Shown piece after piece: positions 1-54,637 of a DNA stretch of 64,000 bases (position 1 is its first letter; the number at the start of each line of letters is the position of its first letter). Under the pieces are notes generated by a model. It did no database searches, had not been told where the DNA came from, and saw nothing but the letters and a program-made list of their open reading frames with translations. The translations under genes were made by a program, and so were the position numbers. This DNA is from Escherichia coli (GTDB taxonomy: Bacteria; Pseudomonadota; Gammaproteobacteria; Enterobacterales; Enterobacteriaceae): assembly GCF_030013595.1 (NCBI RefSeq), contig NZ_CP122768.1. One strand, written 5' to 3'.

Positions 1-73
1 TATCTTTTTGCCCGACAGGATAAGCATGAAGAACGGGAATATCTGCCAGCTCGCGTGATTCTATTTCAATCAT
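1..73 (-). CDS. yjfP: Partial CDS (first 24 codons only, runs off window start): YjfP-like esterase
   Basis: Reverse-strand ATG at 71-73 translates MIEIESRELADIPVLHAYPVGQKD and continues past position 1; matches remembered YjfP N-terminus and expected position next to bsmA. Confidence 0.5.
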   Translation of the reverse strand, partial: MIEIESRELADIPVLHAYPVGQKD

Positions 74-254
74 CTGTCTCTCCTTTTTGTCTGGTATGAC
101 ATGAAGAAATCCTTAGCACAAGTTTCTGCTGGCGGTATTAGTTCATAATGTTGAGATGTGGGTTACGCTTTCGTCACGTTTTCATTCGAAAATCGCGTAC
201 CAGGTAACAATTCGGGAACATTCCCCCAAAGTTAAATTAATAAGGCACTACACT

Positions 255-6891: not shown

Positions 6892-6971
6892 ATATTATTC
6901 CATATAAATTAAGTTTAAATATTAATAAAATGAATATTTGCAGTACGTAATTATCTTACCAGCTATAGACA

Positions 6972-7680
6972 AATAAATATCCTCCGGCATAGCCGGAGGT
7001 TTTTCAAATGCGCCTGTAAGGCTCTGTTACCAGCCGCGCCCTAACAGGCGCATACGATCTGACATTTGCATTCAACTTCGTTACTTACGGCCCGTAAACG
7101 GGCTGCCCGGATATGGAATCGATAACTGCTCCCCCATTTTATCCTCTTCAAGCTGGTGCTTTATGTAGTCCTGTATCTTCGCCGTGTTCTTACCCACCGT
7201 ATCGACATAGTACCCTCGGCACCAGAACTCCCTGTTTCTGTATTTGAATTTCAAATCCCCAAACTGCTCGTAAAGCATCAGACTGCTTTTCCCTTTCAGA
7301 TATCCCATAAAGCCGGATACGCTCATTTTGGGTGGGATTTCCACAAGCATATGGATATGATCTGCGCAGCACTCTGCTTCCAGAATCCGTACGCTTTTCC
7401 ACTCACACAGCTTTCTCAAAATACTGCCTATCGCCCTACGCTTCTCTCCGTAAAACGCCAGTCTTCGGTATTTCGGCGCAAAAACTATGTGATATTTACA
7501 GTTCCAGCGGGTGTGCGCTAAGCTCTTTTCGTCCCCCATTGGGACCCCCTTTTGATTTCTTGTTTGACACTTGCAGTTGCCAGACCGCAAGGTGTTTTAA
7601 CAAATCAAAAGGGGTTTTAATAACTGGCTCAAAGCTGAAAGCTTTCCGGAACCCCCAGCCTAGCTGGGGGTTTTCTGTGC
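6972..7680 (-). mobile_element. IS200 insertion sequence (IS200/IS605 family), about 707 bp; ends estimated to within roughly 10 bp
   Basis: Contains tnpA (7081-7539); subterminal hairpin 7652-7670 (cccccagc/gctggggg); stem-loop 7546-7614 pairing the Shine-Dalgarno sequence; hairpins 6981-6999 and 7008-7053 at the other end; rlmB-to-yjfI spacing is about 710 bp longer than I expect for the native intergenic region. Confidence 0.8.
7081..7539 (-). CDS. tnpA: IS200 transposase TnpA (Y1/HUH single-strand transposase), 152 aa
   Basis: ORF 7081..7590 trimmed to ATG at 7539 (MGDEKSLAHTRWNCKYHIVFAPKYRR...HIHMLVEIPPK...); HxH motif and catalytic Tyr region recognisable. Confidence 0.9.
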   Translation of the reverse strand: MGDEKSLAHTRWNCKYHIVFAPKYRRLAFYGEKRRAIGSILRKLCEWKSVRILEAECCADHIHMLVEIPPKMSVSGFMGYLKGKSSLMLYEQFGDLKFKYRNREFWCRGYYVDTVGKNTAKIQDYIKHQLEEDKMGEQLSIPYPGSPFTGRK

Positions 7681-7682
7681 AC

Positions 7683-7709
7683 AAAAAAAAACCATCCAAA
7701 TCTGGATGG
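7683..7709 (-). terminator. Rho-independent terminator downstream of rlmB
   Basis: Minus strand reads gccatccagatttggatgg followed by nine T, about 20 nt after the rlmB stop. Confidence 0.6.
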
Positions 7710-7729
7710 CTTTTCATAATTCAGAGGAA

Positions 7730-8461
7730 CTAGCTGCGCTGTCGCACCGCTTCAAATAAGCAAATCCCTGTCGCCACAGAAACGTTCAGGGAAGAAACGC
7801 TTCCTGCCATTGGGATGCTGATCAACTCGTCGCAATGTTCACGAGTCAGGCGACGCATACCTTCACCTTCCGCGCCCATCACCAGTGCCAGCCGTCCGGT
7901 CATTTTGCTCTGATAAAGTGTATGATCCGCCTCACCTGCCGTACCGACGATCCAGATATTCTCTTCCTGCAACATACGCATGGTGCGCGCAAGGTTAGTC
8001 ACCCGAATCAGCGGAACACTTTCTGCCGCGCCGCAGGCTACTTTTTTCGCCGTGGCGTTGAGCTGTGCGGAGCGATCTTTCGGCACAATCACCGCATGAA
8101 CACCAGCGGCGTCCGCGCTACGCAGGCACGCGCCGAGGTTGTGCGGATCGGTTACGCCGTCGAGGATCAGCAGGAACGGTTGATCGAGCGAAGCGATCAG
8201 ATCCGGCAGATCGTTTTCCTGATACTGCCGTCCTGGCTTCACACGGGCGATAATGCCCTGATGCACGGCACCGTCGCTTTTCTCGTCGAGATACTGACGG
8301 TTCGCCAACTGGATAACCACGCCCTGGGACTCAAGGGCGTGAATCAGCGGTAACAGACGTTTATCTTCACGGCCTTTTAAAATAAAGACTTCCTGAAAAC
8401 GTTCAGGGGCGCGCTCCAGCAGGGCCTGCACTGCGTGGATGCCGTAAATCATTTCGCTCAT
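7730..8461 (-). CDS. rlmB: 23S rRNA (Gm2251) 2'-O-methyltransferase RlmB, 243 aa
   Basis: Intact ORF ([26 protein letters not shown]...); SpoU/TrmH-type sequence; downstream of rnr. Confidence 0.9.
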
Positions 8462-24988: not shown

Positions 24989-25064
<76 letters not shown>

Positions 25065-25099
25065 TTGGGTGGTCTGTGCTTTACAGCACTTTCAAATTT

Positions 25100-25175
<76 letters not shown>

Positions 25176-25332
25176 TTAATCTTCGTCTTTCGAACCGCTA
25201 CTGCCTTGGCTGCCTTCACTCACCTTAGTCACTTACTTTTGTAAGCTCCCAAGGATTCGTTCAGTTGCCGCCTTGTCGCAATTCGAAATACTGCGATTGG
25301 GTGGTCTGTGCTTTGCAGCACTTTTCAAATTT

Positions 25333-25408
<76 letters not shown>

Positions 25409-40644: not shown

Positions 40645-40691
40645 TTGGGGCCGTCCCCGGTGAAAAGAGGCGTTTGCAGGTCGTCCTGCAA
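40645..40691 (-). ncRNA. Guanidine-II riboswitch (mini-ykkC motif) in the gdx 5' leader
   Basis: Minus strand reads two GC-stem hairpins with ACGR loops, gcagg-ACGA-cctgc (40676-40689) and gggg-ACGG-cccc (40647-40658), joined by a 15-nt linker, about 20 nt upstream of the gdx ATG. Confidence 0.7.
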
Positions 40692-40802
40692 AGCTGATGG
40701 TTGAACGGATATTTTGCCAGGTGGCAGGGGAATTTCAACTATTACCTTTGTGACTATCGCAAAAAAACAAACGGCACGACATAACTGTCGTACCGTTATT
40801 GC

Positions 40803-54561: not shown

Positions 54562-54637
54562 GCCCGGATAGCTCAGTCGGTAGAGCAGGGGATTGAAAAT
54601 CCCCGTGTCCTTGGTTCGATTCCGAGTCCGGGCACCA
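54562..54637 (+). tRNA. pheU: tRNA-Phe (GAA)
   Basis: gcccggatagctcagtcggtagagcaggggattgaaaatccccgtgtccttggttcgattccgagtccgggcacca, 76 nt, followed by hairpin ggacctcc/ggaggtcc plus TTTTT at 54653-54678. Confidence 0.95.

What the first reader, a model, noticed from the sequence alone, without database searches (positions are those of the whole stretch)
7545..7670. IS200 5' region: end hairpin plus a stem-loop that buries the tnpA ribosome-binding site
On the tnpA strand the Shine-Dalgarno sequence (aaggggg) is base-paired in a long stem-loop (7546-7614), and a GC hairpin (7652-7670) sits near the element end. This matches what is described for IS200 translational repression, where an antisense small RNA to this region (art200/STnc490) is also reported in Salmonella, so a cis-antisense transcript is plausible here.
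Basis: partly seen in the sequence, partly recalled or inferred. Interest (0 to 1): 0.3.

Follow-up and report, generated by a model that had tools for sequence, protein, structure and literature searches.

The report
IS200 transposase leader: known translational lock
This is the left end of an ordinary IS200 insertion sequence in an E. coli chromosome, carrying the already well-studied RNA hairpins (and almost certainly the antisense RNA gene) that keep its transposase switched off.

Summary
On the minus strand a 10-bp GC hairpin (7672-7650) lies 10-13 nt inside the left end of a 712-bp IS200-family element (about 7682/7685 to 6971/6974). A 69-nt stem-loop (7614-7546) pairs four of the five Shine-Dalgarno Gs; the fifth G and the spacer sit in a small hairpin that holds the tnpA AUG (7539-7537) in its loop. 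Pairing probability of the SD is about 1.0, and the fold z-score is -5.0. Rfam RF01405 (STnc490) matches at 146 bits, but on the tnpA-sense strand. Across 70 relatives from Proteobacteria and Firmicutes the SD stem covaries: 9 of 11 pairs show double changes and 91% of cells are paired. The host is E. coli, not Salmonella. The element sits directly after the rlmB terminator. The region is near-identical to Salmonella IS200 and Yersinia IS1541, including the published art200 antisense promoter, start site and hairpin-plus-U-tract terminator on the plus strand. Antisense transcription is therefore very likely, although no RNA data could be examined. Everything matches published work (Beuzón 1999, as cited in Ellis 2015; Ellis 2015, 2017). 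Verdict: real, correctly interpreted, already known, low interest.

The parts
6971..7685 (-). IS200-group insertion sequence. The insertion is 712 bp, either 7682..6971 or shifted by up to 3 T to 7685..6974. There are no terminal inverted repeats and no clear target duplication.
   Evidence: Comparison with the empty rlmB-yjfI site of E. coli VCSW5 (L001) shows a 712-bp insertion after the T9 run. Related copies occur in 2645 of 5426 complete E. coli genomes.
7683..7709 (-). Host rlmB intrinsic terminator: hairpin 7709-7692 plus a T9 run at 7691-7683. This is the insertion target, not part of the IS.
   Evidence: The hairpin was found by the terminator scan on the complementary strand. The same sequence is present in the empty site.
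7650..7672 (-). Left-end hairpin AACCCCCAGC-UAG-GCUGGGGGUU, corresponding to IS200 nt 12-34. It is the published bidirectional terminator against read-in transcription. By analogy with other family members it is probably also the subterminal hairpin that TnpA recognises on single-stranded DNA.
   Evidence: Folds. Helix 1 is 97.6% paired and 5 of 10 pairs show double-sided changes. On the plus strand it is followed by TTTTCTGT. Published role: PMC4513863 and PMC5435999. A similar right-end hairpin is present across relatives.
7631..7645 (-). Small hairpin 2 (AAAGCU-UUC-AGCUUU). The published tnpA transcription start (about nt 40, i.e. about 7644) falls in its 5' arm.
   Evidence: It is part of the Rfam RF01405 consensus structure and appears in the fold. 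Conservation is weak: 67% of cells paired.
7546..7614 (-). Long stem-loop of the tnpA 5'UTR (IS200 nt 69-138). The basal 13-bp helix pairs the anti-SD CCCCUUUU with AAAAGGGG of the SD. The apical stem (7590-7584 with 7577-7571) carries the loop CUGGCA (7583-7578), the published kissing site for art200.
   Evidence: MFE, centroid, pair probability about 1.0. Covariation: helix 3 has 9 of 11 pairs and helix 4 has 5 of 6 pairs with double changes. The loop's role comes from the M1 mutant in PMC5435999.
7545..7551 (-). Shine-Dalgarno sequence AAGGGGG, 5 nt upstream of the AUG.
   Evidence: Read directly from the sequence. It matches the SD quoted in PMC4513863. Every base is paired with probability >= 0.99.
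7531..7545 (-). Start-codon hairpin GUCCC-AAUGG-GGGAC, with the AUG (7539-7537) in the loop.
   Evidence: A comparable hairpin enclosing the start codon is predicted in 60 of 70 relatives, 50 of them at -3 kcal/mol or better.
7560..7565 (-). C/A-rich single-stranded stretch AAACAA (-26 to -21 from the AUG). It is the published Hfq-binding site and putative S1 enhancer site.
   Evidence: Position mapped from PMC4513863. It is unpaired in the fold.
7081..7539 (-). tnpA, encoding a 152-aa Y1 (HUH) transposase. The gene is intact.
   Evidence: ORF list. Pfam PF01797 at E = 7.9e-37. HUH at residues 61-63 and Tyr125 present; 147/152 identical to IS200F and 141/152 to IS1541A.
7530..7620 (+). Predicted art200-type cis-antisense sRNA of about 90 nt: a 5' small hairpin, then the long hairpin, then GGGG-UUUUAA.
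   Evidence: Start site and length taken from PMC4513863 and mapped onto the window. The plus strand folds at -38.4 kcal/mol, z = -5.9. The hairpin is followed by TTTTAATAA at 7615-7623. No transcription data were available.
7495..7524 (+). Inferred art200 promoter: -35 TTTACA (7495-7500), an 18-nt spacer, and -10 TAAGCT (7519-7524). It is embedded in tnpA codons 6-7 and 14-15.
   Evidence: Sequence. The spacing fits the published start at nt 153, and the description 'good -35, almost unrecognisable -10' matches. Both hexamers are identical in Salmonella IS200F and Y. pestis IS1541A. The Leu codon under the -10 is NTA in 76 of 76 distinct relatives, against 28% A-ending Leu codons elsewhere in the gene.
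6981..6999 (-). Right-end subterminal hairpin CCUCCGGC-UAU-GCCGGAGG, followed by AUAUUUAUUU and the element end.
   Evidence: Terminator scan hits on both strands. A conserved CCNCCNGC-NNN-GCNGGNGG hairpin is followed by AT-rich ends in relatives.

Best explanation
Window 7545-7670 is the left-end control region of an intact IS200-group insertion sequence. The element lies on the minus strand of an E. coli chromosome, directly behind the rlmB terminator. It appears to work as described for Salmonella IS200.

1. The GC hairpin at 7672-7650 stops transcription that reads in from outside. It probably also serves as the hairpin TnpA recognises on single-stranded DNA.
2. The weakly transcribed tnpA mRNA (start about 7644) folds its 5'UTR into a 69-nt stem-loop. 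This buries the Shine-Dalgarno sequence against an upstream CCCCUUUU anti-SD, so 30S subunits cannot bind.
3. A roughly 90-nt antisense RNA (art200) is transcribed from the plus strand, from 7530/7531 to about 7620. Its promoter is hidden in tnpA codons 6-15, and it ends at the same inverted repeat, which on this strand reads as a hairpin plus U-tract. It kisses the apical loop of the mRNA and blocks ribosome binding.
4. Hfq binds the C/A-rich stretch upstream of the SD.

Shown here: the structures, their statistical support, their covariation, the sequence identity of all elements to the characterised IS200/IS1541, and the element boundaries. Inferred from the literature and not tested here: termination, translational repression, antisense transcription and Hfq binding.
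For: Structure
- Fold and SD pairing probability of about 1.0 in all contexts; z = -5.0.
- Rfam RF01405 full-length match at 146.4 bits against a gathering score of 56.

Element identity
- A 712-bp insertion relative to an empty site.
- Intact Y1 transposase.
- The 5' region is 95.9% identical to Salmonella IS200F and 92.7% to Y. pestis IS1541A. The left-end hairpin, basal stem, apical stem-loop, AAGGGGG of the SD, the AUG and the antisense -35/-10 are identical.

Conservation in 70 relatives
- 89.5% of cells are paired, against about 40% when partners are slid.
- 22 of 33 pairs have double-sided changes; no shuffle in 500 reached the covariation score.

Published mechanism
- Coordinates and mechanism are in PMC4513863 and PMC5435999.
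- The Salmonella antisense promoter was shown there to fire in E. coli.

Plus strand
- Hairpin followed by a U-tract.
- Synonymous-site constraint on the antisense -10.
Against: - No expression data for this locus were available, so the antisense RNA and the repression are inferred by homology.
- The generic sigma-70 scan found no promoter on either strand in 6900-7800. TAAGCT matches only 3 of 6 consensus positions, as the authors also noted.
- The Rfam model matches the sense strand only, in the window and in all 20 other loci tested. It therefore says nothing about the antisense RNA.
- Counts of G-U versus A-C pairs in the basal helix (17 versus 22) do not show which strand's RNA structure is under selection.
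Confidence: 0.92

Rival explanations
1. The long inverted repeat exists mainly for the antisense RNA, as its structural body and intrinsic terminator. SD sequestration in the mRNA would then be a by-product.
For: - On the plus strand the hairpin is followed by UUUUAA, exactly where the published 90-nt RNA ends.
- In 63 of 70 relatives the 6 nt flanking the stem hold at least 4 A on the sense strand, which read as U on the antisense strand.
- The antisense -10 shows synonymous-site constraint across the family.
- The basal helix has as many antisense-compatible A-C cells as sense-compatible G-U cells.
Against: - The helix always includes the SD itself in every relative, even where the SD is GGAGG rather than GGGGG.
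- The apical helix keeps a G-U pair in 61 of 70 sequences, which would be a C-A mismatch in the antisense RNA.
- Published lower-stem mutants derepress tnpA about 20-fold independently of art200.
- The two roles are not mutually exclusive.
Confidence: 0.25
2. The hairpins are chiefly DNA-level transposition signals. They would be single-strand DNA structures bound or cleaved by the Y1 transposase, as at the ends of IS608 and ISDra2, rather than RNA regulators.
For: - Both ends carry GC-rich subterminal hairpins with 3-nt loops, conserved across relatives.
- Covariation cannot distinguish DNA hairpins from RNA hairpins.
- Established knowledge of the family: TnpA recognises subterminal hairpins on the top strand.
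Against: - This is plausible only for the 7672-7650 hairpin.
- The long stem-loop lies 70-140 nt inside the element, has no counterpart at the right end, and always pairs the SD.
- The literature shows RNA-level effects for it.
Confidence: 0.3
3. The region's main present-day role is as a source of host-domesticated trans-acting small RNAs, as proposed for Salmonella: the processed sense 5'tnpA RNA, art200, or both.
For: - PMC5435999 and PMC12594629 report that the processed 5' part of tnpA regulates invF and other regulons in Salmonella.
- The sequence here is nearly identical.
Against: - The published targets are Salmonella SPI-1 genes that E. coli lacks.
- This copy is present at this site in only 4 of 5426 complete E. 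coli genomes, which does not fit a fixed host function.
- Nothing here tests trans activity.
Confidence: 0.1
4. The structures are chance palindromes in AT/GC-patchy intergenic DNA.
For: None beyond the general frequency of short hairpins.
Against: z = -5.0 and -5.9 with 0 of 200 shuffles as stable. Rfam E = 5e-31. Compensatory changes across phyla.
Confidence: 0.01

Closest known systems
Salmonella enterica IS200 (IS200F and LT2 copies): left-end terminator, SD-sequestering 5'UTR stem-loop and art200 (formerly STnc490)
   Same: - All structural elements fall at the same element coordinates.
- The left-end hairpin, basal and apical stems, loop, AAGGGGG of the SD, the AUG, and the antisense -35/-10 and start site are identical.
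- TnpA is 147/152 identical.
- The Rfam score is equivalent: 146 bits here against 149 bits for IS200F.
   Different: - The host is E. coli.
- There are a few substitutions in the middle of the stem-loop (ACACC...GUGUC here, ACAUC...AGUUC in IS200F), one in hairpin 2, one immediately after the SD (T7544 here, G in IS200F) and one in the antisense promoter spacer.
- This copy belongs to an E. coli sublineage: 99.7% identical to copies in other strains and about 96% to the common 'IS200C'.
Yersinia pestis IS1541A
   Same: Same architecture, with identical regulatory elements. The antisense RNA is reported to be expressed there (PMC4513863).
   Different: 92.7% identity over the 5' 206 nt. TnpA is 141/152 identical.
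Rfam RF01405 'STnc490 Hfq binding RNA'
   Same: Full-length match (model positions 1-124) well above the gathering score.
   Different: The model corresponds to the tnpA-sense strand: left-end hairpin, hairpin 2 and the SD stem-loop, IS nt 12-135. It does not correspond to the roughly 90-nt antisense art200 that the name STnc490 refers to in PMC4513863. All 21 loci with a match (the window plus 20 others) hit on the tnpA strand.
IS10 RNA-IN/RNA-OUT antisense control of transposase translation
   Same: A cis-antisense RNA, made from a promoter inside the 5' end of the transposase gene, pairs via a loop with the mRNA's ribosome-binding region.
   Different: The element family and transposase type are unrelated. 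According to PMC4513863, IS200 pairing does not need Hfq, and the mRNA additionally self-sequesters its SD.

Membership tests
IS200 group of the IS200/IS605 family | A single ORF encoding a Y1 HUH transposase of about 150 aa | tested here: met
   152-aa ORF at 7539-7081. Pfam PF01797 at E = 7.9e-37. HUH at residues 61-63 and Tyr125 present.
IS200 group of the IS200/IS605 family | Length of about 700-710 bp, no terminal inverted repeats, no target-site duplication | tested here: met
   A 712-bp insertion relative to the empty site. Only a 3-base T ambiguity occurs at the junctions.
IS200 group of the IS200/IS605 family | Subterminal hairpins at both ends | tested here: met
   Left end 7672-7650. 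Right end 6999-6981. Both are conserved in relatives.
IS200 group of the IS200/IS605 family | Transposition through single-stranded intermediates | not testable with these tools
   Requires biochemistry or genetics.
Rfam RF01405 (STnc490) | Covariance-model score at or above the gathering score of 56 bits | tested here: met
   146.4 bits, E = 4.9e-31, model positions 1-124, minus strand.
IS200 tnpA 5'UTR translational repressor stem-loop (Beuzón 1999, cited in PMC4513863; Ellis 2015) | The SD is base-paired to an upstream anti-SD in a stable stem-loop at element nt 69-138 | tested here: met
   Stem-loop at 7614-7546. SD pair probability is 0.99-1.0.
IS200 tnpA 5'UTR translational repressor stem-loop (Beuzón 1999, cited in PMC4513863; Ellis 2015) | The structure is conserved through compensatory changes in relatives | tested here: met
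   Helix 3: 9 of 11 pairs have double-sided changes and 91.2% of cells are paired. Slid controls give 36-45%.
IS200 tnpA 5'UTR translational repressor stem-loop (Beuzón 1999, cited in PMC4513863; Ellis 2015) | The stem-loop blocks 30S binding and lowers TnpA synthesis | not testable with these tools
   Shown for Salmonella IS200 in PMC4513863. Not measured for this copy.
art200 cis-antisense sRNA | Promoter and start site opposite tnpA codons 3-15 | tested here: inconclusive
   The hexamers TTTACA and TAAGCT and the start position are identical to Salmonella and Yersinia and fit the published description. However, the generic promoter scan found nothing, and the published figure showing the boxed elements could not be read.
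art200 cis-antisense sRNA | An antisense transcript of about 90 nt is actually made | not testable with these tools
   No RNA data were available. Needs a Northern blot or strand-specific RNA-seq.
art200 cis-antisense sRNA | Stable hairpin followed by a U-tract at the 3' end | tested here: met
   The plus-strand fold is -38.4 kcal/mol, z = -5.9. TTTTAATAA follows at 7615-7623.
IS200 left-end bidirectional terminator | GC-rich hairpin at element nt 12-34 with flanking U/A runs | tested here: met
   10-bp stem at 7672-7650. GAAAA lies 5' of it on the sense strand, which reads as UUUUC 3' of it on the plus strand. The U-tract on the sense side is weak (UUCCGG).
IS200 left-end bidirectional terminator | Terminates read-in transcription | not testable with these tools
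   About 85% termination is reported for Salmonella IS200 (PMC5435999).

The most novel reading that the evidence does not exclude
The antisense RNA gene may not be an enterobacterial peculiarity but an ancestral, selected part of the whole IS200 group, from Proteobacteria to Firmicutes.
- Its -10 (TAnnnT) is held in place by synonymous-site constraint on the Ser-Leu codons 6-7. The Leu codon is NTA in 76 of 76 distinct genes, against 28% A-ending Leu codons elsewhere in the gene.
- Its terminator is the SD stem-loop plus a conserved U-tract.
- Its target is the near-invariant apical loop.

If so, the sense/antisense RNA pair in this E. coli copy would also be available for trans-acting host regulation, as proposed for Salmonella.
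Probability: 0.4. Interest if true: 0.35.

Novelty: already known. Interest (0 to 1): 0.12.

Why it matters
The finding matters little beyond correct annotation. It marks an intact, translationally silenced IS200 copy in this E. coli genome, and it flags that 7530-7620 (+) should be annotated as an art200-type antisense sRNA and 7546-7672 (-) as a cis-regulatory leader.

Two side results may be useful to curators:
- The Rfam family named STnc490 models the sense-strand leader rather than the antisense RNA.
- The leader architecture, and probably the antisense gene, extends with covariation to Firmicutes relatives.

Tried and rejected
1. The generic sigma-70 and terminator scan of 6900-7800 found no promoter. 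It also missed the left-end hairpin and the long hairpin as terminators. Its thresholds exclude a 3-of-6 -10 and stems with internal loops, so I do not count this against the antisense gene.

2. RNAalifold on the MAFFT alignment A1 recovered only the left-end hairpin and the apical stem. Stem lengths differ between subgroups and MAFFT shifted the middle. I therefore wrote the structure by hand from the window fold, using only the columns anchored on CUCC and GGAGG, and counted pairs with slide controls.

3. I tried to decide which strand's RNA is under selection from G-U versus A-C cells. The result was inconclusive: the basal helix gave 17 versus 22. Only one conserved G-U pair in the apical stem favours the sense strand.

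4. I considered the 169-aa ORF starting at TTG 7590. I rejected it as an ORF-caller extension. RefSeq annotates 459 nt for the homologous copies, and the SD-AUG spacing fits 7539.

5. The overlapping ORFs 7496-7717 (-) and 7332-7733 (+) have no Pfam match.

6. I tried to read Beuzón and Casadesús 1997 and 1999 and the He et al. 2015 review of the IS200/IS605 family. None is held. Statements about those papers are taken second-hand from PMC4513863 and PMC5435999.

7. I asked whether terminator-adjacent insertion was a new observation. A 2025-26 preprint already reports it as strongest for IS200/IS605.

Full report
**What is at the coordinates**

On the minus strand, 7900-6700 reads as follows:
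- the end of rlmB (stop at 7730);
- its intrinsic terminator (hairpin 7709-7692, T9 run 7691-7683);
- GTGCACAGAA;
- a perfect 10-bp hairpin, AACCCCCAGC-TAG-GCTGGGGGTT (7672-7650);
- a small hairpin (7645-7631);
- a long inverted repeat (7614-7546) ending in AAAAGGGG;
- GUCCCAAUGGGGGAC;
- a 152-aa ORF (7539-7081).

The ORF is a Y1/HUH transposase: Pfam PF01797 at E = 7.9e-37, with HUH at residues 61-63 and Tyr125.

**Host and element boundaries**

The flanks are E. coli chromosome, in the order rnr-rlmB-[insertion]-yjfI-yjfJ. They are 99.9% identical to several strains that lack the insertion.

Base-by-base comparison with the empty site of strain VCSW5 shows a 712-bp insertion directly after the T9 run. 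It spans 7682..6971, or up to 7685..6974 because three T's are ambiguous.

Related elements occur in 2645 of 5426 complete E. coli genomes. This exact site is occupied in only 4.

**Check of the observation**

Folding the minus strand from 7680 to 7520 gives the following:
- the left-end hairpin (7672-7650);
- the long stem-loop at exactly 7614-7546;
- a 5-bp hairpin (7545-7531) holding the AUG in its loop.

The fold energy is -65.2 kcal/mol, against -44.2 +/- 4.2 for dinucleotide shuffles (z = -5.0; 0 of 200 shuffles as stable).

In four transcript contexts, including one that starts at the published tnpA start, every base of AAGGGGG has a pairing probability of 0.99-1.0, and the AUG is unpaired in a loop.

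The only amendments are that the end hairpin is slightly larger than stated, and that the fifth SD G pairs in the neighbouring small hairpin rather than in the long stem.

Rfam RF01405 (STnc490) matches 7672-7549 full length at 146.4 bits (gathering score 56, E = 5e-31). It is the only copy in the window.

**Conservation**

A scan of one genome per species with the TnpA protein returned 80 loci, at 66-94% protein identity. They come from Enterobacterales, Vibrio, Desulfovibrio, Sutterella and many Clostridia and other Firmicutes.

Individually folded, nearly all show the same three-part leader, and the SD (GGGGG, GGAGG or AGGAG) is buried in a long hairpin.

On a 70-sequence alignment (A1) I imposed the window's structure:

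| Measure | Result |
|---|---|
| Cells forming standard pairs | 89.5% (36-45% when partners are slid by 1-3 columns) |
| Pairs with changes on both sides | 22 of 33 |
| Shuffles reaching the covariation score | 0 of 500 |
| SD-sequestering helix | 91% paired; 9 of 11 pairs with double changes |
| Left-end hairpin | 97.6% paired |
| Apical stem | 94% paired |

The apical loop and stem sequence (UGCGGUCUGSCAACUGCA) is nearly invariant.

Rfam RF01405 also finds the leader in all 20 other loci tested, always on the tnpA strand. Most Firmicutes copies score above the gathering threshold.

**Agreement with the literature**

PMC4513863 (Ellis, Trussler and Haniford 2015) gives these coordinates for the 707-bp Salmonella IS200:
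- terminator, nt 12-34;
- tnpA start, about nt 40;
- SD stem-loop, nt 69-138;
- SD, AAGGGGGU;
- a C/A-rich Hfq/S1 site at -26 to -21.

With nt 1 set to 7683, every one of these lands on the corresponding feature here. The hairpin falls at 7672-7650, the stem-loop at 7615/7614-7546, the AUG at 7539 (nt 145), the C/A stretch AAACAA at 7565-7560, the antisense start at 7531/7530, and the antisense 3' end at about 7620.

PMC5435999 summarises the effects:
- The left-end hairpin terminates about 85% of read-in transcripts.
- The stem-loop represses translation about 20-fold.
- art200 represses about 15-fold.
- Hfq binds just upstream of the SD.
- Three nucleotides in the terminal loop are critical for art200 pairing. 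This explains the invariant apical loop.

PMC12594629 states that an inverted repeat in the tnpA 5'UTR is a common feature of the IS200 group.

**The antisense RNA**

This part could only be addressed by sequence.

On the plus strand the elements are:
- TTTACA at 7495-7500;
- an 18-nt spacer;
- TAAGCT at 7519-7524;
- the published start at 7531 (or 7530), 7 nt downstream of TAAGCT.

This fits the authors' remark that the -35 is good and the -10 is 'almost unrecognisable'. I could not see their figure, so the hexamer assignment is my inference.

The plus-strand RNA 7530-7620 folds at -38.4 kcal/mol (z = -5.9). Its long hairpin is followed by UUUUAAUAA, so the inverted repeat doubles as the antisense terminator.

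Both hexamers and the start site are identical in Salmonella IS200F and Y. pestis IS1541A, with one substitution in the spacer relative to the window. The Salmonella promoter was shown to fire in E. coli. An art200-type RNA from this copy is therefore very likely, but it remains unobserved.

Two family-wide signals support a conserved antisense gene:
- The Leu codon underlying -12/-11 of the -10 is NTA in 76 of 76 distinct genes. Five other conserved Leu positions use all six codons, and only 28% of other Leu codons end in A.
- 63 of 70 leaders have at least 4 A in the 6 nt 5' of the stem, which gives a U-tract on the antisense strand.

**Caveat on the Rfam hit**

The RF01405 consensus aligns to the tnpA-sense strand: left-end hairpin, hairpin 2 and SD stem-loop. 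The plus strand scores only 21.5 bits, through the palindromic end hairpin alone.

The family name therefore refers to the antisense RNA, while the model describes the sense leader. The hit identifies the IS200 leader but is not evidence for antisense transcription.

**Rival readings**

- The stem-loop probably serves both RNAs. G-U versus A-C counts do not separate the strands, although one G-U pair conserved in 61 of 70 sequences favours the sense RNA.
- The end hairpin probably has a DNA-level role as well. A similar GC hairpin with a 3-nt loop sits at the right end (6999-6981) and in relatives, as expected for the TnpA recognition hairpins of this family. This is an inference from IS608/ISDra2 biology.
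- A domesticated trans-acting role, as proposed in Salmonella, is possible but untested. It fits poorly with the rarity of this insertion.

**Verdict**

The feature is a textbook instance of a characterised system, and novelty is nil for the finding itself.

The side observations extend known facts modestly: cross-phylum covariation, synonymous constraint on the antisense -10, and terminator-adjacent insertion. The last of these has already been reported in a preprint.

Noticed in passing
window 7683-7709 and 6971-7685; loci L003-L082: The IS sits immediately after the T9 run of the rlmB intrinsic terminator, co-oriented with it. In relatives from Proteobacteria and Firmicutes the left end is likewise preceded by a host hairpin plus T-run. 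A strict test found this in 39 of 60 loci, against 0.6% of control flank positions, and most of the misses are errors of my hairpin finder. A 2025-26 bioRxiv preprint (10.1101/2025.07.22.666184) already reports terminator-like sequences upstream of ISs, with the strongest signal for IS200/IS605.
   Followed up: partly
window 6971-7685 versus L002 (E. coli MS 69-1): Four of 5426 complete E. coli genomes carry an IS200 at the identical rlmB-yjfI site. In MS 69-1 the copy is the 'IS200C' type and differs at 28 of 712 positions (3.9%), while the flanks differ at 16 of 1189 (1.3%). The T-run is one base shorter. This could reflect independent hits on a hot spot, or an old insertion with divergence or gene conversion. 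It was not resolved.
   Followed up: partly
window 7549-7672 (-); L005-L084: Rfam RF01405 'STnc490' matches the tnpA-sense strand in the window and in all 20 other loci tested. The model therefore describes the sense leader, not the antisense art200 RNA that the name STnc490 denotes in the literature.
   Followed up: partly
window 7519-7524 (+), i.e. tnpA codons 6-7; loci L003-L082: There is synonymous-site constraint here. The Leu codon is TTA or CTA in 76 of 76 distinct tnpA genes and the preceding codon starts with A in all of them, which preserves TAnnnT on the antisense strand. Other conserved Leu codons vary freely.
   Followed up: yes
L011 (Vibrio plantisponsor), about 60 nt upstream of the tnpA match: This is a degenerate copy. 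The left-end hairpin is fused almost directly to the start region, the whole SD stem-loop is deleted, and ATC replaces the ATG.
   Followed up: no
L085 (E. coli plasmid pTB201) and about 277 other plasmid records: A left-end leader remnant, about 76% identical to IS200 and without a tnpA gene, lies a few hundred bp from the iss serum-survival gene on IncF plasmids.
   Followed up: no
window 40646-40692 (-): A Guanidine-II (mini-ykkC) riboswitch match at 50.4 bits, above the gathering score.
   Followed up: no
window 24992-25408 (-) and 54562-54634 (+): Three tRNA genes with identical scores lie in a tight cluster, and a fourth tRNA lies elsewhere in the window.
   Followed up: no
window 7081-7590 (-): The mechanical ORF list extends tnpA upstream to a TTG at 7590, inside the apical stem, giving 169 aa. 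This is an artefact. The real start is the ATG at 7539, behind the SD.
   Followed up: yes
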